DNA of 63,701 nt, filler included, from Reclinomonas americana ATCC 50394 (lineage: Eukaryota), in the NCBI GenBank assembly GCA_048213135.1. It is 15 parts of 15 records of this genome, joined end to end, with 100 filler letters (N's around TTAATTAATTAA, not from the genome) between each part and the next. Parts side by side here need not be neighbours in the genome. Positions count along the whole stretch, not along the records: positions 31,493 to 36,501 come from AFZH01020181.1; 14 more parts are not named here. One strand, written 5' to 3'. The notes under the pieces were generated by a model that made no database searches, was not told the DNA's origin, and saw nothing but the letters and a program-made list of their open reading frames with translations. Shown piece after piece: positions 19,901-38,877 of this stretch. The position numbers were made by a program, and so were the translations under genes. Numbering within the stretch: the stretch's first letter is position 1; every line of letters begins with the position of its first letter.

Positions 19901-22900
19901 GATGATCACGAAGTCGACGCTGCCATAGAGCTGGCCGACGATGCCGGCAGCGCCCTGGATCCAGTAATAGGTGTCGGTCCCGGTGGCGCGGTCATAGGGG
20001 GTGAAGGGCGCATAGACGCCCTCGAAGACGCCGAACACCTCGACCTTCAGGCCCGCCTTCAGCGGACCGGCCTGGAAATCCTTGCCCAGGCCCACGGCCA
20101 GGCCCAGGCCCGCCTCGATCACGGGGCTGAACTCGCCGTTGGTCGCCAGCGGCACGCGCTCGGAGGTCGCGCCCGTCAGATAGGCGAAATAGAAGCCGCC
20201 CTCGCCGACAAACGGGAAGACCTCGACGGCGAAGGACAACGAGAAATCCTGATTGTGCGGGAAGCCCAGGTCGATCCGGAAATTGCCGTTGGTGTAGATA
20301 TCGAGATGGATCATCCCGAGGGTGACGCTGACGGCTCCAAACTCCAGGTGCCGGAACATGTCGGGCACGCGCAGATCGACCGACAGCTCGCCGATGTCAT
20401 CGGTGATCTTGCGGTAGAGCAACTCGAACCGCAGCCCCGCCAGCGGCCCCGCGCGCGGACCCGCCAGGGCGATCAGGCCGCCATAGATGATCGGATCGAA
20501 GAACACCGCCTGCAGGGTGACGGTGTCGAGGATCGTGGCGTCCAGGCCAAACATCCAGTTGGCGTTGCCGTCATAGCGCAGGCCCACGGCATTGGGATCG
20601 CTGAGCGGATTGCCGCCGCCCGACACCGGCCGCACGCTGGCCTTCAAGGCCTCGATGATGTCCTCGACCGTCTTCAGCTGGGCGACCGGAGTGGGCAGCA
20701 CCACGTGTTGGCCCATGCCGACATAGCGCAGGTCGATCAGGCTGGGACCCTTGCCCGGTACGTCGGGAGCGGGGTCGTTGAGCACGTCCCAGGACAGCGG
20801 CTCGCCGTCATCGTCGCCGAACGGCTGGCCCAGGAACTCGCCGGTCAGCTCGATATAGACCCGGCCCTCGCCGTTGACGTTCTTGTAGAGGAGCTTGATG
20901 GCCGTGAACTGGGCGAAGGTCAGGTCCAGGTTCAGCGCGTAGCTGATCTCGATGTCGTTGGTGGTCAGATTGACCTCCAGCGACAGGTTCTTGAAGTTGA
21001 TCTGGTAGAGCACGTCCCAAGGCGAGGAGAGGCGGCGGCTCTCGCCCGGCAGGGCCAGGTTGATCAGATATTCCAGGATCTCGCCGAACGACAGGTCGCC
21101 CAGGCGGATCGTCAGGATCGTCTCCTGGACCTGGGTCTTTATGTTGGGGCGCTGGGTCAGCGTCGCCTGGATGCTGCGGTTGTTGTACCAGATACCGAAG
21201 GTCAGGGCCGAGTTGGCGGGCGAGAAGCGATAGCCAGCCGAGATCAGCAGATCGTACAGGCTGAACGTTCCCTCGACCGCGCCGGAGATCGTCCATGGCG
21301 TGTCGTCGTCGACGAGCGAGAGCGGGACGAGCGGAACGCGGCCCGCGCGCGTGGTCTCGGCGATGGGGCCTAGGCGGGGGACCAGGAGGGCTCCGGTCTG
21401 GCGATCGCCGCGCAGCGACAAGCCGGCGCTCATCTGGAAGGGCAGGCTGGTGTCGAACACCGAGAACGTCCAGGCCGCCGACATGCCGCCGTCGAAGGTG
21501 TAGGCGATCGGGGTGTTGTCGGCGTCGGTCGACAGGGTGGCGTTCAGCCGGTCGATGACCAGGCTGGGCACGCCATAGGCTCCGCCGGGGATGTCGCCCT
21601 TGGGATACATGAAGCCCAGTAGGAGGTCGGTGACGCTCAGCGAACTGCCGCCGACCAGGCCGCCGGCGAAGCCCCAGCCGGCCCCGTCGCCGGGCGAGGC
21701 GGCGGTGAAGAAGAACCGACCCTCATTGACGCTGGCATAGGCCGTCAGCGTCCCTTGCAGCAGCTGGCCGTCATATTCGATGTCGAAGCTGACGCCGTCG
21801 AAGCTCAGGGTGATCAGGGCGCCGCCATTGGCCTGCCCGAACGACACGCTCCAGTCGGTGAGGATGTCCGTGCCGAAGCCGAAGGTGCGGTCGAGGACGC
21901 CGACCGACATCTCCAACCGCGAGATCTCCATGGCGATCGGCGGGCGGTAGGTTTTGCCTGTCAGTTTCTGCATCACCGCCGCCATCAGCGCCTCGACCGA
22001 CACGGTGACGCCCGGCTGCAACTGGCTGGCCAGCACCCATTGGGGCACGCCCAGGGCCGCGACCATCGGGACTTCCTCGACGATGGTGAAGTGGGTGTAG
22101 AACGAGGCGGATGGGTAGGGCTGACCCTCCTCGAAGGCTACGGTCATCGCCACGCCGATGTCCTGCACGGTGAGGATGTCGTTGGGCAGGATCGCCCAGT
22201 CGCCGACCTCCATCGCCACGTCGAAGACGATCGCATCGACGTGCGGCAAGGCGCCCGTCTCGGCGAAATACAGCGACAGGGACAGGCCGCGCAGCATCAG
22301 ACGCGTGGCGGGTGGGAACTGGACCGGGATGAGGACCCCGAGGTCGACGCCGCCGGCCAGGGCGTCGAGTTCGGCCCAGGACGACATCGGCCGCGCGGCC
22401 TGGGACACAGCCAGGGTCTGGAACGGCCCCGCGGGCAGCACCGAGAGCGACAGGATCAACGGCGGACCCGGCGGGAAGGCCAGGGTGGCGATGACCTGGG
22501 CGCTGGAGAAGGCCGCCTTCAGCGTCGTCTTTAGGGGCTGGTCGGGATCGGAATAGGGCAGGATCTCGTAGACGCTCGAGAGCTTGACGCCGAACTCAAG
22601 GTCGACGCCAGCCAGGGTGACCTGGGCCGCGCCCGCCGGCTTGAGGTCGATCACCGGCATGGGGCCATCGCTCAGCGTGATCGGACCGGCCACGGTGCGG
22701 CTGGCGGGCGTTGGCAGCAAGGGCTGGACGATGGCGAAGGGTCCACTGGCCGCCAGGACGCCCTGGAAGTTGATGAACGGCGCCACGGTGTCCGGATAGT
22801 CGCTGACCGTGGTCGACTGGCTGGTCAGCAGGAAGAGGCCCTGTTCGAAGCTGACGTCGGCCAGCTCGGTGTCTTCAAGTCCCTCCAGGCTCGCGCCGAG

Positions 22901-23251: not shown

Positions 23252-24721
23252 TCAGTAGGTGATGGTCGCGAGCAGCGGCATGTGATCGCTGACGAAGAGG
23301 TGGATGTATTCGGCCGCGCGTCGCGCGTCGGTGATATTTCCCGCATGGAACTGGCGGCGGGACTCTTCCCAGTTGACGAAGGTGCCGCCCCAGCTGCCGC
23401 AGATCATCGGTTTCCAGGTCTGCGAACCCGAATTTCTGTATTGCGGGCCGGTAACGGTCATTTTCCGATAGCGGGGTTGATCCCCGACCGAGGCCTCGGT
23501 GTCCCTCATCAGCTTGTCGGCGTGGGTGATGGCCAGCTGGTAGATCTGGTTGCCGGTGACCGCGGCCATCAGGTCGATGCGCTGGGCGGCCACGTTCCCG
23601 TTGCTGAACACCAGATCGATCTTGTGGCGCAGGTAGTCGCTGGCATTGGCGGTGTTGATCGGCACGTCGTGATTGGGGCCTCCGACGATCTGCACGGTGG
23701 TGCGGCGGGCCGCGTCGCCGGCATTGGAGGCGGGGGTGACGGCGCAGGCCGCGCCACCGTCGATGGTCGCCGCATAGGGGCGGACAAAATACTGGTAGCT
23801 GCCAGGCCAGTCGTTCTGCTCGACCGAGTGGTTGAAGTCGCCGCCGAACACCACCCGCGTGGCGACCTGGACGTCGTCGGGATCGGGGGTCACCCCGTCG
23901 ACCGTGTTGATGGCGTAGAGCTCGCGCGCCAAGCCGCTCATATACGCGCCCCAGGACGCAGGGACGGGTTTGCTGGGCGCATGATAGACCGAGACCGGAC
24001 AGAGCCGGGCGTTGTCGTGGCCGAGTTTCAGGACCACATAGACGGGGCGCCTGACCCGAGCCCATCTTATCGTGCTGGGGTCTGTGGCGCCCGTCGGCGG
24101 GTAGTTGAGCCGGGGCCAAGCGTCGAGGTCGTCATAGTCCCCGTTCATGGGATCATACTGGTTTGGGTAACTGCGGGCCCGCGTGAACCCGCCGGCGGCG
24201 CCGAAGCTGTCCTGGTCGGCTCGGCGACCCACGCCGGCGATCTTGAGCGTCGCGGCCGGTCGACCCAGCCGCGAGATGTTGAGCGGCGATGTTGGCCGGG
24301 CCGAGATCGGACCAGAGTTGTAGGCGATGGGCTGGAGACCATCGACGAGCTTGAATCGGTCCTGGTTACGGCGCCATAGGACAGCGTAGCCCTCTGAACG
24401 CGCGCCGGTCTTCATGGTCAGGTCGCGGTAGTCTTGCGGCTCATCGACGATGCTGCTGGCGAGGGCCGAGCCGCACCAGCTATAGGCCCAGTCCTTGTTG
24501 GCGTGCAGGGCGTTGAGCTTGCGCTGCAGGTCGGCCAGCGCCGTCAGGGCGTCGCTCTGGGCCTCCTGGATCAGGAGGACGTCGATATTGTACTCGCGCA
24601 CCAAGCGGGCGATGAACTGATTGCGCATCGCATTGCCGTTGATGGTGTAGAGCCCGTCGTAGCGCGGTATGGGCTGGCCGAAGTTCTGGATGTTCCACAG
24701 GCAGACCCGAACGTCCGTCAT
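23252..24721 (-). CDS. Endonuclease/exonuclease/phosphatase (EEP, DNase I-like) family protein, copy 2 (E), 489 aa
   Basis: Full EEP motif set: VCLWNIQNF, DVLLIQE, SEGYAVLWR, VYHAP, FGGDFN, KIDLVF, VSDHMPL. Confidence 0.9.
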   Translation of the reverse strand: MTDVRVCLWNIQNFGQPIPRYDGLYTINGNAMRNQFIARLVREYNIDVLLIQEAQSDALTALADLQRKLNALHANKDWAYSWCGSALASSIVDEPQDYRDLTMKTGARSEGYAVLWRRNQDRFKLVDGLQPIAYNSGPISARPTSPLNISRLGRPAATLKIAGVGRRADQDSFGAAGGFTRARSYPNQYDPMNGDYDDLDAWPRLNYPPTGATDPSTIRWARVRRPVYVVLKLGHDNARLCPVSVYHAPSKPVPASWGAYMSGLARELYAINTVDGVTPDPDDVQVATRVVFGGDFNHSVEQNDWPGSYQYFVRPYAATIDGGAACAVTPASNAGDAARRTTVQIVGGPNHDVPINTANASDYLRHKIDLVFSNGNVAAQRIDLMAAVTGNQIYQLAITHADKLMRDTEASVGDQPRYRKMTVTGPQYRNSGSQTWKPMICGSWGGTFVNWEESRRQFHAGNITDARRAAEYIHLFVSDHMPLLATITY

Positions 24722-24809
24722 GGCTGGCTTCCCGCGGGTGCGGACGTCTTGGCCTCATGCGGACGGCGGGGCGTGATGACGATGAGCTGGTGAATCATCG
24801 CGGCCGCCC

Positions 24810-26279
24810 TCAGTAGGTGACGGTCGCGAGCAGCGGCATGTGGTCGCTGACGAAGAGATGGATGTACTCGGCCGCGCGTCGCGCGTCGGTGATCCGGCCG
24901 GCGTGGAACTGTCGACAGGACTCGTCCCAGTCGATGAAGGTGCCGCCCCAACTGCCGCAAATGATCGGCCTCCAGATGTGAGTGCCCGATTTTCGATACT
25001 GCGGCCCGGTCGTGGCCATCCGTCGGTAGGGATCTTGCGGGATCGACTCCTCCGTTCCCCGCATCAGCGCGTACGCGTGCTTGATCGCTAGCTGGTAGTG
25101 GTCGTTGCCGGTGACCTCGGCCATCAGGTCGATGCGCTGGCCAACCACATTGTCGCTGCCGAACACGAGATCGATCTTGTGGCGCAGGTAGTCGGCGGCG
25201 TTGGGGCTATCGATCGGCTCGTTGTGCATGACGCCTTCGACGATCTGCACGGTCGTGCGACGAGCCGGATTGCCCGCATTGGGCGCCGGGGCGACGGTGC
25301 AGGCCGCGCCTCCGTCGATGGTCGCCGCGTAGGCGCGAACAAAATATCCGTAGCTGCCAGGCCAGTCGTTCTGTTCGACCGAATGATTGAAGTCGCCGCC
25401 GAACACCACCTGAGTGGCGACTTGGGCGTCGTTTGGATTGGGCGTCAGCCCATCGACCTTGTCGATCGCATAGAGCTCGCGCGCCATGCCGCTCATGTAC
25501 GCGCCCCAGGACGCGAGCAGAGGGGCGCTCGGCGCATGATAGACCGAGACAGGACAAAGCTTGGCGTTATCGTCGCCGAGTTTCAAGACAACATAGATCG
25601 GGCGCCTGACCTTGGCCCACTTTACCGAGTTGGGGTCAGCCGCGGACGTCGGAGGGTAGTTGAGTTTTGGCCAGTCATTGAGATTGTTGTAGTTCGAAGT
25701 CTGCGGGTTGTAGGCGTTCGGATAGGCCCTGGCCCGGGTGAAACCACCCGAGGCGCCGAAGCTATCCTGGTTGGCGCTACGATCGATGCCGTTGATCTTC
25801 AGCGTTGCGGTCGGTCGACCGAACAGCGAGATGTTGAGCGGCGAGGTTGGGTTCACCAACACGGGGCCAGTGTTGTAGGCGATGGGCCGGAGGCCATCGA
25901 CGAGCTTGAAGCGGTCCTGGTCGCGCCGCCAGAAGACGGCGTAACCTTCCGAACGCCCGCCGGTCTTCAAAATCACCTGCGCGGCCGTGGCCGGCTGTTC
26001 GATCTGCCTGTTGGCGATGGCCGAACCACACCAGGCATAGGCCCAATCTTGGTTGTCCTGGTGGAGCGCATTGAGCTTGCGCTGTAGGTCCTGAAGCGAG
26101 GGGAGGGAGTTGGGCTGGACCTCCTGGATCATCAGGACATCGATGTTGTAGCGATAGACTAGGCGGGCGATGAACTGATTGCGCATCCCGTTGCCTAATC
26201 GGTAGCGCACGCCGTCGTAGCGTTCGGAGGGCTGGCCGAAGTTCTGAATGTTCCACAGGCAGACTCGGACGTCCGGCAT
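24810..26279 (-). CDS. EEP (DNase I-like) family protein, copy 1 (D), 489 aa; tandem paralog of 23252-24721
   Basis: Same motifs (WNIQNF, DVLMIQE, YHAP, GGDFN, IDLVF, SDHMPL); aligns end to end with its neighbour. Confidence 0.9.
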   Translation of the reverse strand: MPDVRVCLWNIQNFGQPSERYDGVRYRLGNGMRNQFIARLVYRYNIDVLMIQEVQPNSLPSLQDLQRKLNALHQDNQDWAYAWCGSAIANRQIEQPATAAQVILKTGGRSEGYAVFWRRDQDRFKLVDGLRPIAYNTGPVLVNPTSPLNISLFGRPTATLKINGIDRSANQDSFGASGGFTRARAYPNAYNPQTSNYNNLNDWPKLNYPPTSAADPNSVKWAKVRRPIYVVLKLGDDNAKLCPVSVYHAPSAPLLASWGAYMSGMARELYAIDKVDGLTPNPNDAQVATQVVFGGDFNHSVEQNDWPGSYGYFVRAYAATIDGGAACTVAPAPNAGNPARRTTVQIVEGVMHNEPIDSPNAADYLRHKIDLVFGSDNVVGQRIDLMAEVTGNDHYQLAIKHAYALMRGTEESIPQDPYRRMATTGPQYRKSGTHIWRPIICGSWGGTFIDWDESCRQFHAGRITDARRAAEYIHLFVSDHMPLLATVTY

Positions 26280-26282
26280 CGC

Positions 26283-29200
26283 CTACTCCTTCTTGGCGTA
26301 GGCGGCGTACCAGCCCAGGGCGCCGCGATCGGTGATCAGGGACTGGCTGGCGACGTCGGGATTGCCGAACAGGGCGATGACGTTCTGGCCGGGCGGGAAC
26401 TTCCAGCCCAGGAACCGCAGATAGAAGTTACGGAAGCGCAGGACATAGGCCGGGTCGGGCGGGGCGGCGGTCGCGCCTTGGGCCTGTAGGTCGATCGACT
26501 GGAAGCCCAGATCGATCACCCCCTGGATCGGCGACAGCGACCGGATGCTCTCCACGCCCGGCAGCTTCAGGCCGATATTGGCGTCGTGGCCGCGCGGCCC
26601 CGGCGACCAGGCGGTGACGATGCTGGCCGAGAGGGCCGGGGCGGCCGACAGCGCGCCCATCGCGCCCAGGTCCACCCCCAGCACCAGGCCGTACCATTCG
26701 CCATTGAAGCCGGGCTGGGACAGCGGCGTCTCCAGCGGCATGAAGCCGAGGTCCTTGGGGCGCTGGCTCTTGTCGCCGCGGATCAGGCCGGCCAGCTGCA
26801 GCGGGAAGCGCTGGAAGAAGCTGGTCGGTCGCGCTTGGCTGGCGGCCGGGTCGAAGGCGACGTCTGTGATGTTGAACGTGAACGCGCGCGCCTCCGGCGT
26901 CGCCACCGGGAAGTCCATGTCGACCGACAGACCTGAAAAGGCCAGGTAGCCGTCGGCGATCATCACGCCGTTGCGGTCCCGGGTCGGTCCGAACGAGAAG
27001 GCGTCGAAGCCCTTCAGGTCCGCGAAACGCAGCTTGCCGCGCAGTAAGAACCGGTTGCGGATGATGCTCTGGGTGGCGCTGTCGGTGGTGGTGGTGACGA
27101 ATTGCGCCTGCTCGAAGGTGGTGTTGAGCAGGACGGCCTGATAGGCGCTGCCGCCACGCCCCACCGCGTCGGCGCCATAGGTGTTGACCTGGCTGGTGGC
27201 GAAGACGTAGTGGCCCGAGCCGCCCTGGCGCTGATAGGCGCCGTCCAGCAAGATGTTGTTGTAGTGCTCGCTGTCATAGAGGGTGACCAGTTCGCCGAAG
27301 AGCTGGTTGACGAAGAGCTCTATGCGGGCGGCGAAGTTGGCGATGGCGCTGTTGGCGAATAGCACCCGCAGCAGCAGCACCTTGAAGTCGAACGCCCCGC
27401 TGCTGTGAGCGATGTCGACCGGGTCCTCGTAGTCGATCAGACCGAAGATCGCGCTATGGTCCTGCGACAGGCTGCGCTGGGCGGGGTCGACCGTCACCGG
27501 CGTCACCGAGACGCCGACGTGGTGCGCGCGAAACTGGCTGGGATCGACGCCCGCCGCCAGGCCGGCCAGCTCGGGCGGCACGGAGCTGAACGGCACGTTG
27601 GCGTTCAAGACGATGACCCCTGTCCAGCCCGGATCGCTGACCACCTGGGTGACGAAGTTGTAGAGATCGCTGGCCTGCCCCTGGGCGGCAACCTCGTCCC
27701 GCGCCGCGGTGATGATCTGGTTGATCAGGCTCTGGGTGGCGCTGATCGTGCCGTCCAGCTTGGCGACCTCGGGCCAGGCCCAGGCGTCGGTGTTCTGGAC
27801 GAAGTCGGTGAGCGGGCCGCGGGCGTACTTGAAGATCATCACCGGCGGGTGGGCGGATTGGTCGGCCCACAGGGAGGGCGACAGGCGAAAGCGCCACCCC
27901 TCGACCTCGAGCTGAAAATAGACCGCGTACTTGATTACCACGTCGCGATACTGGGCGTTGGGGCCGGTCAGGACCGTATCGAGCATGGCGGTGAACGCCG
28001 CCAAAGAGGTCTGCGGCGCACGGGCGTTGGCTGCCAGCAGCGAGACCACCGAAGATGGTATAGCCTCCGCGCCGGTCAGCCGCGTCAGGTCGCCGAGCAC
28101 CGCGTCGGTGATCCAGTAGTTGTAGTCGGCGCTGGTCATCAGCAGCGGGCCATTGGCCGCCACCAGGAAGAGCTGGTTGGCCTGCAGGGCGTTGCGAAGG
28201 TCAGGGCCTGGCGTGTTGAACGCCAGTTGCGGCAGCACGGTCTGGGCCTTGGCGGGGCTGAGGATCACCGACCGCCAGGTCGAGCCTTCGAAGGTGGCCA
28301 ATATGCCCTGCGGCGTTACGGCGGGCGCGGCGACCGCGTCTTCGAGCCCTTGCGGCGCTTGCAGGAACAGCTGCTGGCCGCCGACAGCGCCCAGGGCCGC
28401 ACGGCGCATGGGGCTCAGCACCTGGGCCTCGAAGGCGCGTAACAGGTCCAGGTTGTTGGCCGCGTCGCCACCAGCATAGGGTGTCAGCGGATAGGGCTGG
28501 CCCGGCGCAGTGACGTCGGCCGTGATCAGCTCCAGCAGCGGCAGGTAGGGCAGCAGCGCGTCGTCGCCCGGCGCGCGGACGTGGAAGAAGGCTGCGCCCG
28601 CCGGCTGGGCGAAATACCAGGCCTGGCCGCCGACGGGCGGACCGATGGCGGCGAAGGCGACGCTGGCCCGCGCGTCGAGGGGCGGCGGCGGATCTTCGAA
28701 GGTCGATGGCGCCGCCCCGACCGATTCGTTCCAATGGCTCTGCGCCAGCGGCTTGGGCGGGAAATTGGCCGCGAAGGCCGGTTGGGCGGGGGTGAACGAC
28801 ACCGGCACGGCCTGGCCGGTCGAGAAGCCGAAATACTCGCTGCCCGACATGCCGGGCGACAAGCGAGCAGCGGGCGTGGCCTGTCCGCCTTGCGGCGCGG
28901 CCACGGTCAGGGTGAAGGGGCCGATCGGCGAAAGGTAGAAGGGGTCGTCCCCCGGCGCTTCAGTTAGGGTGGTCGGGCGGCGGTGGAAGGCCAGCCCCGC
29001 CGGCAGGCCGCCGCCCGCGCCGACGTTCGGGGTCAGGTCGACGTCATAGCCGAGCTGGGCGCTGAAATGGGTGTCGAGCACAGGCGCCACGGCGGCAAAG
29101 GCCAGATGCGTGCGGCTTGGCTCCAACGGCGCGCCCGGGTCGACCAGCAAGGTCATCGGCACGGCGCTGGGCGCTAGACCTCGCACCAGCGGCTGGCGCA

Positions 29201-29885
29201 GCGAACTGAGTAGCATGCCGTCAGGATCGCTTGGATCGACCAGGCCATAGCGGAAGCCGACGTCCAGCAGTTCGAAATCGCTTAGGCCGCTGGGATTTGC
29301 CACAGACTCCAGGCTGAGATCCAGCTGGAAGGTCCCTGCGGTCGCGCCGCTGGCCGACAGCACCGTCTGGCCGGACGCCGTCAGCGGCCAGGTCTTATCG
29401 TCGGTCAGGAACTGGAAGGCCGGCGTAACGGAACCGGCGATGGAGAAGCCGTCGGCGGTCGGGGCCAGGGTCTGGCCCGAGGCGATCGTGAAGCGGTAGC
29501 GCCCCAGCGCCATGACGCTGGGGCGGTCGATCAGGCCCTGGCTGGCCCCAGGATTCTGACACACATAGAGCACGCGACGGCCCCAGTCGGCGTCGGGCTC
29601 GGCCTGCGCCAGCCAGAGGAAGCGGGCCGCGGGTCCTAGGCGAGCGGCCAGGGCCAGCACCGCGTCGACGAAGGCGGTTTGACCGCTCGCCGCTGGCTGG
29701 GCGCCGATCGTCACATAGAGGCCCGGATAGTCCGTGAAGCTCTGGGCCAGGGTCAGGGTCGGCGGGCCCGCGCCAGATTGCGGCGACAGCAGCAGGCCAA
29801 AGCCGCCCGACGGCGCCCAGCTCGCGCCGTCCAGCCAGTAGAGCCGAGGGTCGCTGGTTGACTGGGTGAACTGGAGCGTCGCCAT
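26283..29885 (-). CDS. 1200-aa protein of unknown function (C), beta-rich, aromatic C-terminus (..LFGNPD..LGWYAAYAKKE)
   Basis: Long ORF 9 nt downstream of gene B and 3 nt upstream of EEP copy 1. No signal peptide or recognisable catalytic motif. Confidence 0.85.
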   Translation of the reverse strand: MATLQFTQSTSDPRLYWLDGASWAPSGGFGLLLSPQSGAGPPTLTLAQSFTDYPGLYVTIGAQPAASGQTAFVDAVLALAARLGPAARFLWLAQAEPDADWGRRVLYVCQNPGASQGLIDRPSVMALGRYRFTIASGQTLAPTADGFSIAGSVTPAFQFLTDDKTWPLTASGQTVLSASGATAGTFQLDLSLESVANPSGLSDFELLDVGFRYGLVDPSDPDGMLLSSLRQPLVRGLAPSAVPMTLLVDPGAPLEPSRTHLAFAAVAPVLDTHFSAQLGYDVDLTPNVGAGGGLPAGLAFHRRPTTLTEAPGDDPFYLSPIGPFTLTVAAPQGGQATPAARLSPGMSGSEYFGFSTGQAVPVSFTPAQPAFAANFPPKPLAQSHWNESVGAAPSTFEDPPPPLDARASVAFAAIGPPVGGQAWYFAQPAGAAFFHVRAPGDDALLPYLPLLELITADVTAPGQPYPLTPYAGGDAANNLDLLRAFEAQVLSPMRRAALGAVGGQQLFLQAPQGLEDAVAAPAVTPQGILATFEGSTWRSVILSPAKAQTVLPQLAFNTPGPDLRNALQANQLFLVAANGPLLMTSADYNYWITDAVLGDLTRLTGAEAIPSSVVSLLAANARAPQTSLAAFTAMLDTVLTGPNAQYRDVVIKYAVYFQLEVEGWRFRLSPSLWADQSAHPPVMIFKYARGPLTDFVQNTDAWAWPEVAKLDGTISATQSLINQIITAARDEVAAQGQASDLYNFVTQVVSDPGWTGVIVLNANVPFSSVPPELAGLAAGVDPSQFRAHHVGVSVTPVTVDPAQRSLSQDHSAIFGLIDYEDPVDIAHSSGAFDFKVLLLRVLFANSAIANFAARIELFVNQLFGELVTLYDSEHYNNILLDGAYQRQGGSGHYVFATSQVNTYGADAVGRGGSAYQAVLLNTTFEQAQFVTTTTDSATQSIIRNRFLLRGKLRFADLKGFDAFSFGPTRDRNGVMIADGYLAFSGLSVDMDFPVATPEARAFTFNITDVAFDPAASQARPTSFFQRFPLQLAGLIRGDKSQRPKDLGFMPLETPLSQPGFNGEWYGLVLGVDLGAMGALSAAPALSASIVTAWSPGPRGHDANIGLKLPGVESIRSLSPIQGVIDLGFQSIDLQAQGATAAPPDPAYVLRFRNFYLRFLGWKFPPGQNVIALFGNPDVASQSLITDRGALGWYAAYAKKE

Positions 29886-29894: not shown

Positions 29895-31392
29895 CTAGGC
29901 TTGGCGCAGCGCCACCTGGTCGCCGCCGACCAGGGGCATGTCCAGCGGCCAGTAGAGCGGCGCCACGCCGCCGAGGTCCTGGTCGCCGAGATTGACTGGG
30001 TCCAGCGACAGGCCCGCATTGGCCGTCGAATATTCGAAGAGATTGGCGCTGGCCCGCAGCAACGACAGCGCCTGGCCGCCCGCGCCGCCGAAATACGGAG
30101 CCAAGCCCTGTGAGGACAGGGCCTGGCGCACGCTGGCGCCCAGCGTCACCCAGCGCGTCTCGCCTTGCACGCTGACCTGGATCTGCGGCGTCAGGCTGGA
30201 GCGACCGCGGAAATAGGTGGCGAAATAGTCTACGCCCGTGGGGAAGGCGCCGTTCTGGGCATAGCTGTCGGTGACGGCCGACAACGTCTTCCAGCTCATC
30301 GCACCGATCACGGTGATGTTGGCCTCGAGGGCCGTTGAGCCCGTCGAGCCCGAGCCCAAGGGCTGTGGCGGGTAGAAAAGCCGATAGTAGGGCTGGCGGT
30401 TCTGATCGTCGAAGAAGTCGATCGGCCCGCCCGCGACCGGACGGCTGCTGGCCGCCCCCCCGCCGCCGGGATAGATCAGCGACAGGAAAGCGTCGACCGA
30501 CAGGCTGCGGCCCGCGCCCGTCGACAGGGTTCCGGCGCCGCCCTGCGGGATGACGTTAAAGAGGTCCAACGCCTCGGCGCCCGTGGCCAGGAAGCCGTTC
30601 TTCTGGCTCGTGCCGCCGACAATCGCCTGGTAGAGCGCGCCAGACAGCTGCAGCCTTGCGCCGGGCGTGAGGTCGACGACCCGCAGGCTGTCGCTACGCC
30701 AAAGGCCGTAGCGGTAGTAGAGGATCTCCTCGAAGGTCTGCGGCATGGCTTCGGCGATGATCTGACGGATCAGGCCGATGGCCCAAGGAAAGACCCCGGC
30801 GTCCTCGATGGCGCTTAGGAACGCGACATAGGTCGAGCGCAGGTCAGGGCGGACGACGGCCGCGCCCAAGCTGGTCCAGACATCGGCGCCCAAGGTCAGC
30901 TGGTAGGGCAGGGGCGGATCGCCGCTGGCCGGAGCCAGTTGGAAGGCGCTGGCGCCGGACTCCGGGATGGTTGGATTGTCCGAGCCGGTGAAGGGCTTGG
31001 GCAGGTAGAGGACGATCGGCTTGCCAATGACGTCGGCCAGGTCCTGGAAGGCGCCACGGCGATAGAGATAAGGCGGCTCGCCGGCCCCGCCGAGCCCGCA
31101 GGAATAGGCGTGGCCGGCCAGGGTCGGCGGCAGGGCCGCGCTGGGCGCGCCCTGGACATAGGGCTGACGGGTGTCGGTGGGGGCGCTGGAGACCGCCCGC
31201 ACGGTCACGGCCACATGGGTTCCCCAGGGATAGGCGAGGTCGGGGACCGCGACGCTCGCCGCGGCGCTCAACGCGCCGGCGACATAGAGATCCTGCGCGC
31301 CGGCGTTGCTGACCGAAACCAGATAGCCGCCGACGCCCGTCCCGGGGATCGGTCGCCAGGCCACATGCAGGTTGGTCCCGTCGTATTCAGCG
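29895..31392 (-). CDS. C-terminal part of the FN3/Ig-like repeat protein (B); frame open to the contig edge
   Basis: The frame is open from the contig end and begins AEYDGTNLHVAWRPIPG..GGYLVSVS, the same YDG-x-x-L-x-x-x-W repeat unit as in 31538-33927. Confidence 0.8.
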
Positions 31393-31501
31393 NNNNNNNN
31401 NNNNNNNNNNNNNNNNNNNNNNNNNNNNNNNNNNNNTTAATTAATTAANNNNNNNNNNNNNNNNNNNNNNNNNNNNNNNNNNNNNNNNNNNNGTGATGCG
31501 C

Positions 31502-31537
31502 CTGCTGTACGGCCAAGGCGGATGTACGGTACAGCAG
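31502..31537. other. Mate-pair library internal adapter (artifact)
   Basis: CTGCTGTACGGCCAAGGCGGATGTACGGTACAGCAG is, from memory, the reverse complement of the SOLiD/Ion long mate-pair internal adapter. It sits at the contig edge where ORF B turns into nonsense. Confidence 0.8.
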
Positions 31538-33927
31538 ACCACCGGCAGGCTGACCGAGGCGGCCGCCGAGCCGGCGACGACCTGGCGGACCAGCGGCGCG
31601 CCGTCGACGCTGACCTCGAACCAGTAGCTGTCCTGGGCTGGGCCCGAGACGGTGGCTCCAATGACGAGACTGGTCCCGTCATAGGTCACCGTGTTGATCA
31701 CGCAAGGGGTATGGAGCGTGGCCGTCGCGGCCGGGCCTTGGCCGACGGCGTTGATGGCCGACAGGCTCAGGCTTCCCGCGACCAGGAAGGCCGCCGGGGC
31801 CGGGCCGTCATAGCCGGCCCCGGTGGCGACTAGGTTCGCGGCGGCTCCGGAAGTCGGCGTCGCCGTCAGGCCGAAACTGTTGACCAGACTCTGGGCGGGC
31901 GGGTCCCAGCGCAGGCTCATCTGGCCATCGGCGATATAGGCCGAGCGTAGCGTCGGGGCCTGCAACAACAGGTCCACAGCGGGCGAGGGCGGGCCGACCG
32001 CCAGGCCGGCGGCGTCGGTGACGCGCGCGCGCAAACGGTAGGGCTGGTCGACCTGGCTTGGCGCTGTGAAGCTGCAACCGGTCGACGAGGTGTCGGCGAC
32101 CAGGGCGGTCAGGGTTTCGCCCAGCAGGAGTTCGCCGCGCACGGCCGCAGGGGCCGCGCCGGTGACGGTCCAGGTCGCCGCGATGCTCGCGCCGGGGGTC
32201 ACTTGGGTGATGGTCACGAGGCTGGCGACCACGGCTATCGTGGCGCTATCGGGCGTGGCGCGCAGGGCCGAGACCCCGGCGACCTTGACTGTGGCGTTCG
32301 CGGCCTGGACGGGCGTCAGCGGCGTCTCATAGCACGTCTGGCCTTCGCTGACCGTGAAGGTCCCTAGGCCGGCGATGGTAACGGCGTAGTGGGTGAGGAA
32401 GGGCAGGACCGCCGCGGCCCACTGCAAGCGCAGGGTCTGGCCGTCATAGTCGACCAGCGTCAGGCTGGGCGCGGTCACGATGGGCGGGGTCACCGTCGTG
32501 GGCGCGGCTGCCAGCGTGGTCACCGGCCCGATCGTCGGCGTAATGCTCGCGCTCCAGGCCTTGGAGAGATCGAGATCGGCCGGGAAGCTGATCGGCAGCT
32601 GGGCGCCGACCTGCACGGCGATCGTGTCGGCGCCTGTCGCGGTCAGAGCGATCGCGTAGCTGTCGGCCGCAGGCCCGGTCGAGGCCAGGTCGATGGTCAC
32701 GGTCTGGCCGTCATAGCGGGCCGCGACCCCTTGTGGCGCGGCCAGCGGCACTGTCAGGCGGGGCGAATAGGGACCCTGGCTCGTCTGGCCGTTGGCTGTC
32801 ACCACCAAAGCGACGTCGATCGCATAGACAGTGCTGGCGGCGGGAGGCAGGGCGGCCCACGTCACCGAGCCGCTGGCGGCGTTTAAGGTCTGGGTCTGGA
32901 TGGCGACGCCGTTGGCGTAGAGGGTGGCGACCAGCGACCCGCCGGTCGGCAGCGCGCCCGGGGCGGCCAGGTGGGCGGAAATCACCGCAGCCTGGGGCGA
33001 GCCCGTGACGCTGGCCGAGAGGATCTGCGGGGGCAGGGTGTTTAGGGCGAGCGTCGCGCCGAGGGGACCAACGAACGCGCCGTAGCTGATCCTCCCGGCC
33101 ACGGTTGGGCTGGCCAGGGCGTCGAGGCGTCCGCCCGCCAACCGCCCGCCGGTCAAACCGGCGTCAGCGATCGCGATCGGGTTCGAACCGTCCAGGAGCA
33201 GGAGGTCGTAGCGCGCCGGCGCCGCCACGTTCGGGGGCGTGGGCGCGGTCCATTGGACGGCGATCTCACCCTCGCCGCAGGCGGCGCGCGTTAGGGCTGG
33301 CCCGGCCGTGGGGATCGGTTGAGCAGTGGTCGGCGGACCCAGGGTGTAGGGCGACCCGAATGCGCCGGTCGTGCCGCCGCTGACCGGCTGGGCCGCAGCG
33401 ATGGAGACCCGGTAGTCGTGGCCGGCGGTGAAGATGGCGCTGACCGTCCCGGCCGGACCCGTGTTCAGGTAGTAGTATTGGGTGTTCGATTGGATCGTGT
33501 AGTCGATGATCTGCAGATAGGCCCCGGCGATCGACGCGCCGCTCGGATTGTCCCAGGTGAACGACAGCCCCGTGGAGGTCACTTCCAGGGCGGTGATGCG
33601 CAGTTGGGCGACCACCACCGGCGCGGAGATCACCCCGCTGACGGACCAGTCCATGTCGGCGGGATTGAGGCCCGGCGAGGCGAATTGCACCTGCAGCAGA
33701 TAGGCGATAGTCGGGGCCAGCGGCGCCGTGTTGAGGACGCGGACGGCGGTGGCCGTCGCGCCCGTCCCATAGGCGATGGGTGTCTGGTCGGCGGTGAGCT
33801 GCGCATAGGCCACCGACCCCGTCGGTGCGCCGCTGGACGAGAGCACAGCCTGCACGCCGGCCTGGGTCGAGCCGATCGGCAGGGGCGCGAATGGATCGAG
33901 ATACTGGACCGACTGGAAGGATGGCAT
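31538..33927 (-). CDS. N-terminal part of a large FN3/Ig-like beta-sandwich repeat protein (B)
   Basis: Strong RBS (GGGGAGGG). Repeated ~85-95-aa units such as ITALEVTSTGLSFTWDNP..GAY, IAVQWTAP..RYDL, PSLTLVDYDGQTLRLQW..THYAV and PTLRSAYIADGQMSLRWDPP..SFGL. Confidence 0.85.
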
Positions 33928-33951
33928 CGCGTCCCCTCCCCCTTCACTCGA

Positions 33952-35658
33952 CTAGAACATCCCGCCGTAGCGCCGGTTGTCCGATTGGATGGTCGCCAGA
34001 GTGCTGGCGTAGTCGGTGTGATAGCGCTCGGGGATGCGGCCCTTCATGTAGTCCAGCGAGTGGGTGTTGAGGTGGTGGCTTTGCTGGACGGCGGCGTGGT
34101 CGCCGACCACGACGCCATTGGCGATGAACGTGCCGATGACGCCGGCCAGGCCCTTGGCGCGATCGGTCTCGTCAATCAACTTCAGATTGGCGAAGACGCC
34201 CGAGAACGTGTCCGGTTCGAGCGCGGCGATCGACTCGGGGCCACCTTCGGTCAGCACGCTGTCGCCGACGGCGAGATCGGCGGCCCGCACCAGCCCGTTG
34301 GCGGTGACGACCGGGTGGCCGCCCGTCAGCACCAGGCTGCGGCCGCCGTCGGTGGTCAGACGATACACCCCGGTGCTGGCGACGTTAGGCTGATGGATCT
34401 TGTGCAGGCCGCGGGTCGTGGCCTCGACGCCCAGTGCGCCGCCTTGTCCGGTGCGCACCCGCACGGTGTTGCCGATGGTCTCGATCGGCTGGGTCGACCC
34501 GTCCTCGAGGGTCACCAGCGTGCCTTCGGCCAGGCAGTGCCACCAGAATTCCAGCGGCTTGATCTGGACGCAGTTGACCGAGGGCTGCTCTGGCCAGTCG
34601 GTGCTGCAGACATTGAACTGATACGGGAGCGGGCCGCTCACCGGGATGATGAACTCGAAGAAGAAGGCCGTCTCGTTGTGCGAGGTCCAGTCGGCGTTGT
34701 TGTTGGCGCCGCCGTAGGTCCCGTAACGCAGCGACGGGGTGTTGCTGGGCGAGGTGTTGCTGGGGTCGAACGGGTAGTTCCAGGTCACGACATTGGTCGC
34801 CGTATCGCCCGTGACCTTGGTTGGATCCGCCGAGCCGGGCACGTAGGCGGCGCCGTTTAGCGAATAGAGGTTCGTGGTCAGCGTCAGACCCGAGGTGAAC
34901 CGGCCGTCGGAACCGACATTGGCCAGCGGCTGCTGGGTGTTGACGTTACCCGTGAACGGCACCAGCAGCGGCGGGTTGTCGTTGGTGTCCTGGGAATAGG
35001 TGTAGTCGGCGTCGACTCCTGGCGAGGGGCGGCCTAGGGCGATCTTCACTGAGGCGTGCGTGGCGCTGACCGGCGCGGTCACCGTGGCCTGCGGCATGCC
35101 TTCGGTCGCCAGCCGCGTCGTCTTGGAAACCATGCCGAAGGCGGGCAGGGCCTCGGGATGCGACTGGCTGTGGTAGAAGCCGACCGCGGTGATTTTATCG
35201 GTTGCGGGCAGGGCGGCGTCCGAGCGCGTCGCAGCCGGGCAGAGGCCACCACCGACCTTGTTGGCGTAACCCTGAGCGAGGCTCGCGCCGGTGTTGGCGT
35301 CGACAACCAAGGCGGCGCTGCTGGCAACGTGCGCGCCAGCTTGGTCGATATACCAAGCGCGGGCGGTGGCGCGCCCTTGCGCGTCGCGGCCCAAGTCGAC
35401 CAGCTGCAGCACATGGCCGGTCGCGTCCGGCGCGGCCAGACCGCCGCCGCTCAGGCGCGCCAAGTCGCCAAATAGCCCCGGGTGAGTCTCGGCTGTCTTG
35501 CCGCTCAGCGCCAGGAACGCCTGGATCGCCGCGGCGTCGACCGGATCGGCGGGGTTGAGGGCGCGTTGAACGCCGTCTTGGCCCGCCTTCGCGGCGGTGA
35601 GGATCGCATCGGCCTGGTCGTTGCTGCTGGGAATCATGCCGCCACCCCTGGTTTGCAT
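33952..35658 (-). CDS. Hint (hedgehog/intein)-domain autoprocessing protein, 568 aa; first gene of the operon (A). True start may be the ATG at 35637
   Basis: H/CLAEGTLV (block A, Cys375), LVLTGGHPV (block B TxxH), VRAADLAVGD and VFANL...TFIANGVVVGD (blocks F/G). AGGGG RBS lies before the second ATG. Confidence 0.9.
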   Translation of the reverse strand: MQTRGGGMIPSSNDQADAILTAAKAGQDGVQRALNPADPVDAAAIQAFLALSGKTAETHPGLFGDLARLSGGGLAAPDATGHVLQLVDLGRDAQGRATARAWYIDQAGAHVASSAALVVDANTGASLAQGYANKVGGGLCPAATRSDAALPATDKITAVGFYHSQSHPEALPAFGMVSKTTRLATEGMPQATVTAPVSATHASVKIALGRPSPGVDADYTYSQDTNDNPPLLVPFTGNVNTQQPLANVGSDGRFTSGLTLTTNLYSLNGAAYVPGSADPTKVTGDTATNVVTWNYPFDPSNTSPSNTPSLRYGTYGGANNNADWTSHNETAFFFEFIIPVSGPLPYQFNVCSTDWPEQPSVNCVQIKPLEFWWHCLAEGTLVTLEDGSTQPIETIGNTVRVRTGQGGALGVEATTRGLHKIHQPNVASTGVYRLTTDGGRSLVLTGGHPVVTANGLVRAADLAVGDSVLTEGGPESIAALEPDTFSGVFANLKLIDETDRAKGLAGVIGTFIANGVVVGDHAAVQQSHHLNTHSLDYMKGRIPERYHTDYASTLATIQSDNRRYGGMF

Positions 35659-35659
35659 T

Positions 35660-35800
35660 TGATGTCGTGAGTTCGTCGTCGCGACCGCCTTGCTTCAGGG
35701 GCGCTTTTCTTTCACTGGTTGTACTTGGAGGTTAACTCCACCGTGAATCGGAATGCAACCAATAACTGTTGCCATTCAAAATATAATCATCACTTGTTTA
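35660..35800 (-). promoter_or_regulatory. AT-rich upstream promoter/leader region of the operon
   Basis: Abrupt AT-rich tract (AAAATATAATCATC) in otherwise high-GC DNA directly 5' of gene A; contains nested inverted repeats at 35716-35761. Confidence 0.5.
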
Positions 35801-35885
35801 GAGCGTCTCGCGCCTCGTCGACGGCGCCCAAGGCCGCCACGTCAGGACCCCCGCGACATCTTCCCCAAGCTCAAGGAATAGGGCG

Positions 35886-36446: not shown

Positions 36447-36601
36447 TCTTCAACGCTCTCTGAAGGTCGTGTCTGCGGCGTGGTCTGAGAGTCTGTTCAT
36501 GNNNNNNNNNNNNNNNNNNNNNNNNNNNNNNNNNNNNNNNNNNNNTTAATTAATTAANNNNNNNNNNNNNNNNNNNNNNNNNNNNNNNNNNNNNNNNNNN
36601 N

Positions 36602-38730: not shown

Positions 38731-38877
38731 CCGTTGGAGAGTAATGCGACGAGAACCGTAATCGAAGCCCGCCTCTGAGTCAATGTTGTTGCCGAGACCG
38801 CGAAAGCTGACACTCATAGGGCGTGCGGCGGCACTTCGATGCGACCCGCCACTGTGCGTCGAGTCTGCATCGCTCAT
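38731..38877 (-). CDS. First exon of a hypothetical gene divergent from METTL16
   Basis: MSDADSTHSGG...RRITLQR followed by a GT donor and a GA-rich intron running off the contig. Confidence 0.4.

What the first reader, a model, noticed from the sequence alone, without database searches (positions are those of the whole stretch)
33952..34536. Hint domain ending in Gly-Asp instead of His-Asn, followed by a 48-aa tail: cleavage or adduct transfer rather than splicing
Seen: Cys375 (H/CLAEGT) and the block-B TGGH are intact. The terminal block reads FIANGVVVGD, with no His-Asn, and is followed by a His/Tyr-containing tail (HAAVQQSHHLNTHSLDY...RRYGGMF). Established: inteins need the C-terminal Asn to splice, while hedgehog Hint domains lack it and use a following region to transfer the N-terminal domain to a nucleophile (cholesterol). 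Inference: the ~374-aa N-terminal domain is released as a thioester and may be coupled to a lipid, small molecule or partner subunit, a possible bacterial hedgehog-like conjugation.
Basis: partly seen in the sequence, partly recalled or inferred. Interest (0 to 1): 0.75.

Follow-up and report, generated by a model that had tools for sequence, protein, structure and literature searches.

The report
Bacterial self-cutting Hint domain with helper tail
This bacterial protein ends in a genuine intein/Hedgehog-type self-cutting domain with an invariant aspartate where inteins have asparagine, plus a conserved helical tail; it most likely cuts off the front part of the protein rather than splicing, and it belongs to a large unstudied family.

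Summary
The ORF at 33952-35658 (minus strand, 568 aa) has an unannotated ~370-aa front part, then a real Hint domain (Cys375 to Asp520) and a 48-aa tail. Structure comparison gives Z 16-18 to inteins, a BIL domain and Hedgehog. Asp520 falls exactly where inteins have their last Asn.

The features are conserved. Among 187 relatives, Cys375 is kept in 183, His448 in 186 and Asp520 in 183. The residue after Asp520 is never Cys (Ser 5, Thr 2 of 185). The tail is 35-51 aa in 177 of 183 and carries a shared RLPxx(W/Y)HxDYx(S/N) motif. It stays confidently folded when Hint plus tail are predicted without the front part.

No Pfam Hint model recognises the family above threshold, except one marginal case among 22 members. 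The family has 701 clusters at 50% identity.

Canonical splicing is therefore unlikely. N-terminal self-cleavage by a Hint-plus-tail unit is the best reading. Hedgehog-like transfer to a non-water nucleophile is possible but unsupported: the tail is hydrophilic and no acceptor is identified.

In this subfamily the gene opens a conserved five-gene cassette. Two proteins, each seen once, fuse it to the next gene. The window is a concatenation of separate pieces.

The parts
33952..35658 (-). Whole gene, 568 aa (probable true start Met8 at 35635-35637)
34537..35637 (-). Front ('cargo') part, residues 8-374: three N-terminal helices followed by beta-strand regions (about 82-186 and 187-372). No Pfam family. 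Ends in the conserved F-W-W-H just before the cut site.
   Evidence: only Ig-like matches at Z about 5, which is noise level; ESM Atlas gave nothing
34570..34608 (-). Cys351 and Cys363, a covarying pair (both Cys in 81 of 187 relatives, one alone in 4+4). Possibly a disulfide.
34534..34539 (-). Predicted scissile junction His374|Cys375. Cys is kept in 183 of 187. The -1 residue is His 137, Gly 25, Ser 20.
34099..34536 (-). Hint domain, Cys375 to Asp520
34402..34404 (-). His419, which covaries with the -1 residue (His/His 126; Gly or Ser with Glu 41 of 187). Candidate acid/base near the scissile bond.
   Evidence: the role is inferred
34315..34326 (-). Block B T-G-G-H (Thr445: Thr 125 + Ser 58; His448 kept in 186 of 187)
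34099..34122 (-). Terminal block A-N-G-V-V-V-G-D. Ala513 175, Gly515 175, Gly519 178, Asp520 183 of 187. Asp520 aligns with the last residue of inteins.
33955..34098 (-). 48-aa tail, predicted helices 521-532, 535-539 and 544-564. It stays confident without the cargo domain.
34003..34038 (-). Conserved tail motif R-(L/I)-P-x-x-(W/Y)-H-x-D-Y-x-(S/N), residues 541-552. Asp549 is Asp in 176 and Glu in 6 of 187; His547 is kept in 131.
31493..33927 (-). Downstream gene, 5' part (FN3-like array protein with the conserved N-terminal motif F-x-S-V-x-Y-x-x-P-F/W). It is cut by the end of the piece.
29895..31392 (-). Probable 3' part of the same downstream gene on the next piece. 828 + 489 aa compares with 1332-1356 aa in the closest intact relatives.
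26283..29885 (-). Cassette gene 3, 1200 aa, no known family
23252..26279 (-). Cassette genes 4a and 4b, two 489-aa endonuclease/exonuclease/phosphatase-fold proteins (24810-26279 and 23252-24721)
10964..23242 (-). Cassette gene 5, giant 4092-aa protein with one LysM match

Best explanation
The protein is a precursor made of a cargo part (residues about 8-374) and a C-terminal processing unit: a Hint domain (375-520) plus a docked helical tail (521-568).

Proposed mechanism, all inferred: Cys375 attacks the His374 carbonyl in an N-S acyl shift assisted by Thr445 and His448, giving a thioester. The thioester is then resolved without splicing, most simply by water. This releases the cargo ending in ...F-W-W-H and leaves Hint plus tail as one spent fragment of about 21 kDa. 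The invariant Asp520 sits at the intein terminal-Asn position next to the thioester. With His419 and the tail's His547 and Asp549, it is proposed to help resolve the thioester rather than to cut off the tail.

Shown here: the fold, the conservation, the placement of Asp520, the lack of a +1 nucleophile, and the docking of the tail on Hint in predicted models. Inferred: that cleavage happens at all, the role of Asp520 and the tail, and the nature of the nucleophile.
For: - Hint fold: Z 16.2-18.3 with rmsd 1.6-2.0 over 125-128 residues to the gp41-1, NpuDnaB and RecA inteins, BIL 2lwy and Hedgehog 1at0. Sequence profile E 2.2e-5 to the RecA intein.
- Catalytic residues among 187 relatives: Cys375 183, Thr/Ser445 183, His448 186.
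- Asp520 is kept in 183 of 187. In one search at least seven intein alignments end at model residue 176 (= Asp520) opposite the chain's final residue number (RecA 440, GyrA 198, PI-PfuI 454, 2cw8 537, DnaX 137, Prp8 171, 5o9i 190). In one search the full-model alignments likewise end at residue 520.
- No splice nucleophile at +1: His 51, Tyr 24, Phe 21 ... Ser 5, Thr 2, Cys 0 of 185. The penultimate residue is Gly in 178 of 187, not His.
- The tail belongs to Hint. It is 35-51 aa and at the protein's end in 177 of 183. In the whole model its pLDDT is 87-95 over 521-560 and 79 for 561-568. It is still 87-94 over residues 171-220 (71 for the last four) when Hint plus tail are folded without the cargo, while the 30 upstream residues fall to 53-61.
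- Cargo sequences diverge faster than the Hint plus tail: 187 of 190 sequences match the Hint-tail query but only 104 match the cargo query.
Against: - No experiment exists, so cleavage itself is inferred from conservation.
- An invariant Asp at the cyclising position could equally serve C-terminal cleavage, as in Asp-ending inteins (PMC4031507).
- A conserved polar tail motif is more than simple hydrolysis would seem to need, which favours a more specific acceptor.
- The -1 residue and the three residues before it are unusually conserved for a mere leaving group.
- Tool outputs give no coordinates, so contacts between Asp520, His419, the tail and Cys375 were not measured. Covariation between them is confounded by subfamily structure.
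Confidence: 0.55

Rival explanations
1. Hedgehog-like transfer. The Hint-plus-tail unit acts like a Hog domain (Hint plus adduct-recognition region). The tail and Asp520/His419 position and activate a non-water nucleophile, such as a small molecule, a lipid head group, a cell-wall amine or a partner protein (for example the product of the next gene). That nucleophile ends up esterified or amidated to His374.
For: - The order of parts matches Hedgehog: cargo, Hint, then a short helix-loop-helix extension at the very C-terminus. The Hedgehog SRR is described as helix-loop-helix (PMC7242414). Here the predicted helices are 521-532, 535-539 and 544-564.
- The tail is co-conserved with Hint, including a near-invariant Asp549 and His547, and docks on Hint in the models.
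- In gapless motif register, N-x5-D520 equals the N-x5-Cys143 of Hedgehog's N-S-V-A-A-S-C stretch (sequence printed in PMC12054796). Cys143 is an essential Hedgehog active-site residue.
- The gene is followed by the same partner gene in 13 of 13 genome loci. Two single-contig proteins fuse the two.
Against: - The tail is hydrophilic: mean Kyte-Doolittle -0.87, and no 15-residue window above 1.2 in 177 tails. It does not look like a sterol or membrane binder.
- Cys143Asp abolishes Hedgehog processing (PMC12054796), so Asp is not a like-for-like substitute.
- The structural alignment to 1at0 runs to model residue 524 opposite chain residue 402, which would place Cys143 (chain residue 400) nearer residue 522 than 520. 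The Asp520 = Cys143 equivalence is therefore uncertain by about two residues.
- The partner's conserved N-terminal motif has no invariant Cys, Ser, Thr or Lys; its invariant residues are Tyr9 and Pro12.
- More distant family members sit in quite different neighbourhoods.
- Pfam's Hedgehog Hint model PF01079 does not hit this protein at E <= 0.01.
Confidence: 0.2
2. Double cleavage or BIL-A-like ligation. Asp520 cyclises to an anhydride and cuts the Asp520-His521 bond, releasing the 48-aa tail. Either three fragments result, or the freed tail amine attacks the thioester so that cargo and tail are joined and the Hint is excised.
For: - Asp520 occupies the cyclising position and is invariant.
- Inteins ending in Asp splice by Asp cyclisation (PMC4031507).
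- A-type BIL domains cleave at their C-terminus. Ligation without a nucleophilic side chain is reported for a BIL domain (review text in PMC7765530; titles of Dassa 2004 and Aranko 2013 seen in the reference list of PMC4031507; the papers themselves were not read).
Against: - The penultimate His typical of inteins and A-type BILs (His-Asn) is replaced by an invariant Gly (178 of 187).
- The tail stays confidently packed on the Hint, not on the cargo, in the models, and it co-evolves in conservation with Hint rather than with the cargo. That fits a part of the enzyme better than an extein.
Confidence: 0.13
3. No cleavage in vivo, or only conditional cleavage. The Hint plus tail is a structural or assembly module, or a redox- or metal-gated switch, that normally stays attached.
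For: - Two single-contig proteins carry the whole unit internally, fused to the next gene's product.
- The -1 residue is a bulky His, and there are several conserved His and Asp residues that could bind a metal.
Against: Near-total conservation of exactly the residues needed for the acyl shift (Cys 183, Thr/Ser 183, His 186 of 187) is hard to explain without catalysis.
Confidence: 0.08

Closest known systems
Hedgehog Hog domain (Hint plus sterol-recognition region), e.g. Drosophila Hh-C, PDB 1at0
   Same: Hint fold: Z 16.2-17.4, rmsd 1.7-2.0 over 127-128 residues, 23% identity. Cys1 and TxxH are present. It sits at the C-terminus of a cargo domain, is followed by a short helix-loop-helix extension, and has no terminal Asn.
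   Different: The junction is His|Cys, not Gly|Cys (Gly in 25 of 187 relatives). Asp stands where Hedgehog's SCYA Cys lies in motif register. The tail is hydrophilic and about 40-48 aa. PF01079 gives no hit at E <= 0.01. No adduct is known. The host is bacterial.
A-type bacterial intein-like (BIL) domains, e.g. Clostridium thermocellum BIL, PDB 2lwy
   Same: Bacterial, non-mobile Hint domain without a +1 nucleophile that processes its host protein. Z 15.2-17.4; profile E 3.9e-5.
   Different: A-type BILs end in conserved His-Asn (PMC7765530). This family ends in invariant Gly-Asp and has a co-conserved helical tail.
B-type BIL domains (as I recall, Pfam Hint_2, PF13403)
   Same: They share the N-terminal intein motifs but not the C-terminal motif, and mainly cleave at the N-terminus (PMC7765530). 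A few relatives give Hint_2 hits, marginal at best.
   Different: P0001 gives no Hint_2 hit at E <= 0.01. Only 1 of 22 diverse relatives passes the Hint_2 cutoff (29.1 against 28.4 bits), and only over profile positions 2-31. I could not read the original BIL-B description, so its C-terminal features are not compared.
Inteins with a C-terminal Asp (class 1 variants)
   Same: Cys1, TxxH, and Asp at the terminal position (PMC4031507).
   Different: There is no +1 Cys/Ser/Thr and no penultimate His. The module is not inserted in a conserved host protein: the 'C-extein' is a 35-51-aa tail that travels with the Hint.
Unnamed bacterial C-terminal Hint-like group noted by Burglin 2008 (PMC2362128; Stigmatella, Myxococcus, Photorhabdus, Serratia, Yersinia, Reinekea proteins)
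   Same: It is described as a bacterial protein group with a Hint-like domain at the C-terminus, weak N-terminal similarity, two conserved upstream cysteines, and some members with signal peptides (passage seen). This family shows a covarying upstream Cys pair and 17 of 153 members with signal-peptide-like N-termini.
   Different: Identity of the two groups was not tested. The alignment is in a PDF supplement I could not open, and those genomes could not be addressed by name.

Membership tests
Hint (Hedgehog/intein) superfamily | Hint fold | tested here: met
   VIA-align Z 16-18 to more than 25 intein, BIL and Hedgehog chains, covering residues 375-520. Foldseek E about 1e-7.
Hint (Hedgehog/intein) superfamily | N-terminal Cys/Ser nucleophile and block B TxxH | tested here: met
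   Cys375 183, Thr/Ser445 183 and His448 186 of 187. TIGR01445 scores 24.9 bits against a cutoff of 24.5.
Canonical (class 1) intein | +1 Cys/Ser/Thr nucleophile after the last intein residue | tested here: not met
   His521 in the window protein. Among 185 relatives with a residue there: Cys 0, Ser 5, Thr 2.
Canonical (class 1) intein | Terminal Asn (or Asp/Gln/Glu) preceded by His | tested here: inconclusive
   The terminal residue is Asp, an allowed variant (PMC4031507). The penultimate residue is Gly in 178 of 187.
Canonical (class 1) intein | Insertion in a conserved host protein whose flanks form the mature product | tested here: not met
   The C-flank is only a 35-51-aa tail that is co-conserved with the Hint and docks on it. 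The three relatives without a Hint match are shorter N-part sequences (P0037, P0084, P0095).
Hedgehog Hog domain | Hint followed by a C-terminal adduct/sterol-recognition extension (helix-loop-helix) | tested here: met
   Predicted helices 521-532, 535-539 and 544-564 at the C-terminus, confident with or without the cargo. This shows resemblance of layout only; homology of the tail to the SRR was not shown.
Hedgehog Hog domain | Gly|Cys junction, Asp46 general base, Cys143 (SCYA) | tested here: not met
   The junction is His|Cys. Asp520 stands at the motif-register position of Cys143. An Asp46 equivalent was not identified; His419 is only a candidate (Hedgehog residues from PMC12054796).
Hedgehog Hog domain | Pfam PF01079 above gathering score | tested here: not met
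   No hit for P0001 at E <= 0.01. Relatives score 19.9-26.0 bits against a cutoff of 29.7.
Hedgehog Hog domain | Covalent adduct on the released cargo | not testable with these tools
   Needs mass spectrometry.
A-type BIL | Conserved C-terminal His-Asn | tested here: not met
   Gly519-Asp520, kept in 178 and 183 of 187. The feature is as stated in PMC7765530.
B-type BIL / Pfam Hint_2 (PF13403) | Match to the family model above cutoff | tested here: inconclusive
   No hit for P0001. 1 of 22 relatives passes marginally, on the first 30 profile positions only. A precomputed PF13403 label is on 3 relatives.
Pre-toxin HINT of polymorphic toxins (PF07591) | Followed by a variable C-terminal toxin domain | tested here: not met
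   It is followed by a conserved 35-51-aa tail in 177 of 183. PT-HINT hits on relatives are sub-threshold, 21.6-27.0 against 27.7.

The most novel reading that the evidence does not exclude
The Hint-plus-tail unit is a prokaryotic counterpart of the Hedgehog Hog domain. The tail, with its invariant Asp549/His547, and Asp520 would recruit and activate a specific non-water nucleophile, such as a metabolite, an envelope component or the product of the neighbouring gene. Cleavage would then covalently tag the C-terminal His374 of the cargo. That would make C-terminal protein 'adduction by autoprocessing' a widespread bacterial modification rather than a metazoan singularity.
Probability: 0.2. Interest if true: 0.85.

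Novelty: new variant of a known kind. Interest (0 to 1): 0.55.

Why it matters
Hint domains are known for three chemistries: splicing, plain self-cleavage, and Hedgehog's cholesterol transfer. Purohit et al. [quoted passage not shown]

This family shows three things:
- It is large (701 clusters at 50% identity) yet sparsely distributed (2 of 400 other sampled Pseudomonadota genomes).
- It replaces the intein Asn with an invariant Asp.
- It carries its own conserved helical add-on, the same layout as Hedgehog's catalytic half.

The family is cheap to test, by expression plus intact mass spectrometry. It could either add a defined new class of self-cleaving module for protein engineering, or reveal a bacterial adduct-transfer reaction and bear on where the Hog domain came from. 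It also flags an uncharacterised five-gene cassette with a ~4000-aa protein, found in Alpha- and Gammaproteobacteria and Actinomycetota.

Tried and rejected
- Complex prediction between the Hint protein (A1) and the first 210 residues of the next gene's product (A2) never ran. The queue was full, and one search gave no usable answer. No result exists either way.
- PADLOC gave no hit for any cassette protein. PHROGs gave only weak hits with E of about 0.001-0.01.
- Phage records hold only 2 weak Hint-only matches. The viral structure library returns ordinary Hint domains and inteins with TMq about 0.5 or lower, so nothing covers the tail. I dropped the idea that this is a phage-fibre Hint.
- ESM Atlas gave nothing usable for the cargo domain. 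For the 1200-aa neighbour it gave only unnamed clusters or clusters auto-named 'hemagglutinin'.
- Fold search of the cargo gave only Ig-like, filamin and ML-domain (NPC2, Der p 2) matches at Z about 5, within the tool's stated noise. I do not read lipid binding into the ML-domain rows.
- The tail helices match only generic hairpins at Z <= 4.4.
- A search for longer, fused relatives by word index found none (the tool itself calls this weak evidence). The three long forms come from the representative search and each is a single sequence on one contig.
- No whole genome is held for the window.
- Dassa et al. 2004 (JBC) is not in the library. Amitai 2003, Dassa 2004 and Aranko 2013 are known to me only through reviews and reference lists.
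- A literature search for this family and one for the Vint structure paper found nothing relevant.
- Covariation analysis (MI with APC, 179 sequences) gave tail-to-Hint pairs only at low scores mixed with subfamily signal, so it is not used as contact evidence.
Full report
WHAT IS THERE

The ORF at 33952..35658 on the minus strand encodes 568 aa. The coordinates are exact:
- Cys375 = nt 34534-34536
- T-G-G-H = residues 445-448
- the block ending G519-D520 = 34099-34104
- tail 521-568 = 33955-34098

Relatives start at the position aligned to Met8, so the first seven residues are probably not translated.

The window is not one continuous sequence. Fourteen spacers (44 N, 12 bases, 44 N) join separate pieces.
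- The Hint gene lies on a 5.0-kb piece (31493-36501). That piece also holds the 5' part of the next gene and a truncated HipA_C-like ORF.
- The rest of the cassette lies on the neighbouring 20.9-kb piece (10502-31392).
- Pieces from 38575 onward have lower G+C (52-63% against 64-71%). They carry eukaryote-type domains split over ORFs: APC10, SH3, F-BAR, ankyrin and tubulin chaperone D.
- Context statements are therefore valid only within pieces. I took context from relatives instead.

IS IT A HINT DOMAIN?

Yes.
- By sequence alone the signal is weak. Pfam gives only Intein_splicing at E 0.0075, below cutoff. NCBIfam TIGR01445 just passes, 24.9 against 24.5 bits on residues 375-452. A single-sequence search of solved structures gives the NpuDnaB intein at E 0.079.
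- A 14-sequence profile reaches the Mtu RecA intein at E 2.2e-5, the C. thermocellum BIL domain (2lwy) at 3.9e-5 and Hedgehog (6tyy) at 0.33.
- The AlphaFold model of the whole protein has pLDDT 89.1 and pTM 0.87 (45-sequence alignment). By Foldseek it matches inteins, BIL domains and Hedgehog at E about 1e-7.
- An all-against-representatives structural search gives Z 16.3-15.2 to these chains. One of them is Hedgehog 1at0 at Z 16.2, rmsd 1.7 over 127 residues and 23% identity.
- Folded alone with the tail, the domain scores Z 18.3 to the gp41-1 and NpuDnaB inteins, and 17.4 to 1at0 and 2lwy.
- In one search at least seven intein alignments run from model residue 30-31 (His374/Cys375) to model residue 176 (Asp520). 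They end opposite the chain's final residue number: RecA 440, GyrA 198, PI-PfuI 454, 2cw8 537, DnaX 137, Prp8 171, 5o9i 190. Asp520 therefore occupies the place of the intein's terminal Asn.

IS GLY-ASP PLUS TAIL CONSERVED?

- The word-indexed search found 44 relatives at 83-32% identity. Where named, they are called only 'Hint domain-containing protein' or 'hypothetical protein'.
- The exhaustive search of cluster representatives found 701 clusters at E <= 0.001, 307 at <= 1e-10 and 57 at <= 1e-30. Only the best 150 were returned.
- Of the 190 sequences then in hand, 187 match the Hint-plus-tail part. The three that do not (P0037, P0084, P0095) are shorter sequences matching only the cargo part.

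Conservation in those 187:

| Position | Count of 187 |
|---|---|
| Cys375 | 183 (one Gly, three fragments) |
| Thr445 | Thr 125 + Ser 58 |
| His448 | 186 |
| Ala513 | 175 |
| Gly515 | 175 |
| Gly519 | 178 |
| Asp520 | 183 (one Ala, one Gly, two gaps) |

- The residue after Asp520 is His 51, Tyr 24, Phe 21, Asn 13, Ala 12, Leu 11, Gly 11, Val 10, and so on. Ser occurs 5 times, Thr 2 and Cys 0.
- The tail is 35-51 aa and ends the protein in 177 of 183. Three are shorter, probably truncated, and three are long.
- The tail carries a shared motif R-(L/I)-P-x-x-(W/Y)-H-x-D-Y-x-(S/N). Asp549 is Asp in 176 and Glu in 6; His547 is kept in 131.
- The terminal Asp is thus as conserved as the catalytic Cys and His, and the tail is part of the conserved unit.

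THE TAIL BELONGS TO THE HINT

- In the full model the tail forms helices 521-532, 535-539 and 544-564. Its pLDDT is 87-95 over 521-560 and 79 for 561-568.
- When residues 345-568 are folded without the cargo (14-sequence alignment), tail confidence stays at 87-94, with 71 for the last four residues. The 30 residues upstream of Cys375 drop to 53-61. The tail therefore packs on the Hint, and residues 345-374 belong to the cargo fold.
- No solved Hint structure covers the tail. It matches only generic helical hairpins at Z <= 4.4. The viral structure library gives only Hint-sized matches.
- The tails are hydrophilic: mean Kyte-Doolittle -0.87, and the highest 15-residue window among 177 tails is 1.2.

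FAMILY ASSIGNMENT

- Across 22 diverse members, Pfam gives only scattered hits to Hint, Hint_2, Vint, PT-HINT and Hom_end_hint. All are below their cutoffs except one marginal Hint_2 pass, 29.1 against 28.4 bits.
- This is a separate, unmodelled branch of the Hint superfamily.
- It fails the A-type BIL criterion (His-Asn), the canonical intein criteria (+1 nucleophile, host-protein insertion) and the Hedgehog residue criteria.
- Membership in B-type BIL is inconclusive.
- Burglin (2008, PMC2362128; passages seen) mentions an unnamed bacterial group with a C-terminal Hint-like domain, two conserved upstream cysteines and signal peptides in some members. This family has both of those features:
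  - A covarying upstream pair, Cys351/Cys363: both Cys in 81, one alone in 4+4.
  - Signal-peptide-like N-termini in 17 of 153 full-length members, by a simple hydrophobicity heuristic.
- I could not test whether the two groups are the same.

TWO FLAVOURS

The -1 residue covaries with residue 419. His374 goes with His419 in 126 sequences, and Gly or Ser374 with Glu419 in 41. All 17 signal-peptide-like members are of the Gly/Ser type. Residue 419 is a candidate acid/base next to the scissile bond. This is inferred, and the covariation is confounded by subfamily descent.

CONTEXT

- In 13 of 13 genome loci the gene is followed by a gene whose product starts with a conserved F-x-S-V-x-Y-x-x-P-(F/W) motif. 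The loci come from Caulobacter, Jatrophihabitans, other Actinomycetota, Oceaniradius, Breoghania, Solirubrobacteraceae, Methylobacter and Dyella.
- Where the locus reaches far enough, the next genes are a protein of about 1150-1340 aa and then one or two hydrolases. The hydrolases are of the EEP fold (PF03372) or, in other genomes, sub-threshold metallo-beta-lactamase-like. Last comes a giant protein of about 4000 aa.
- In Dyella and Oceaniradius the cassette ends after the giant gene, and the flanks are unrelated.
- In the window the second gene is split by a piece boundary. Its 828 + 489 aa compare with 1332-1356 aa in the closest intact relatives.
- Two representatives (P0081, 1764 aa; P0092, 1429 aa) are in-frame fusions of the Hint protein, tail included, to a homologue of that second gene. 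Each is one sequence on one contig, so assembly or calling error is not excluded.
- More distant members sit elsewhere:
  - apparently alone in Azospirillum;
  - in another setting in G070.
- The gene is single-copy in 5 of 5 genomes checked. It was found in 2 of 400 other Pseudomonadota genomes sampled at E <= 1e-15, with at most 7 candidates scored per genome.
- No defence or phage family matches the cassette convincingly.

HOW IT MOST LIKELY WORKS

- The residues for the N-S acyl shift are intact and near-invariant. I therefore commit to thioester formation at His374|Cys375 and release of the cargo.
- Canonical splicing is excluded by the missing +1 nucleophile.
- The open question is what Asp520 and the tail do. 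Three readings are scored: water as the nucleophile with Hint-tail leaving as one piece (0.55), a specific non-water nucleophile as in Hedgehog (0.20), and Asp cyclisation cutting off or transferring the tail (0.13). Their evidence is set out under the best and rival explanations.
- A non-cleaving module gets the remainder, 0.08.

VERDICT

The adduct idea remains an attractive minority hypothesis. The family is a new variant within the Hint superfamily, not modelled by Pfam and untested at the bench as far as my searches show.

Noticed in passing
window 1-63701; spacers listed: The window is a concatenation of at least 15 pieces joined by 14 spacers (44 N, 12 bases, 44 N). ORFs that appear to cross a spacer, such as 31441-33927 or 36546-38315, are artefacts at their ends.
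   Followed up: yes
window 38575-63701: These pieces have lower G+C (52-63%) and carry eukaryote-type domains spread over several ORFs, as if in exons: Methyltransf_10 (38783-40499), TPR, APC10 (46701-47423), SH3 (48175-48717), F-BAR (49840-51261), ankyrin (58043-58858) and tubulin chaperone D (62703-63503). The bacterial-looking cassette pieces (10502-36501, 64-71% G+C) therefore sit among eukaryote-like pieces. This could be a mixed assembly, contamination or gene transfer; I did not resolve which.
   Followed up: partly
window 10964-33927 and loci L001-L013, L019, L021, L022: The cassette is conserved across Alpha- and Gammaproteobacteria and Actinomycetota. Its order is Hint protein, FN3-like array protein (885-1649 aa), a protein of about 1150-1340 aa with no family, one or two hydrolases, and a giant protein of about 4000 aa with a LysM match. 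There is no secretion system, PADLOC family or convincing PHROG hit. Its function is unknown.
   Followed up: partly
window 23252-26279; L010 20211-21566; L013 17849-20711: The hydrolase slot of the cassette is filled by EEP-fold proteins (PF03372) in some genomes. In others it holds metallo-beta-lactamase-like proteins (21.7-22.6 bits against a cutoff of 22.7), an apparent non-homologous swap at the same position.
   Followed up: partly
P0081 (1764 aa), P0092 (1429 aa), P0186 (1180 aa): Three long relatives. Two are fusions of the Hint protein, tail kept, to the downstream-gene homologue. One continues into a DUF6765 domain. Each is a single sequence on a single contig.
   Followed up: partly
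window 34570-34608 (Cys351, Cys363): The upstream cysteines are either both present (81 of 187) or both absent, which suggests a disulfide. That would fit an extracytoplasmic location, although this subfamily has no signal peptide. The signal-peptide subgroup lacks this pair but has 4-13 other cysteines.
   Followed up: partly
window 35886-36488 (+): A HipA_C-like ORF (E 4e-22) upstream of the Hint gene is truncated by the end of the piece. The closest relative's locus (L001) has a different upstream gene.
   Followed up: no
window 36602-38474 (-): A long Glu/Ala/Arg/Lys low-complexity ORF (repeated A-E-E-E-A-A-R-K-type units) lies on its own short piece. It has no Pfam family.
   Followed up: no
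window 8920-10260 (-): A 446-aa ORF on a separate 1.9-kb piece has no family hit. It is not part of the cassette in Dyella or Oceaniradius, where the cassette ends after the giant gene.
   Followed up: partly
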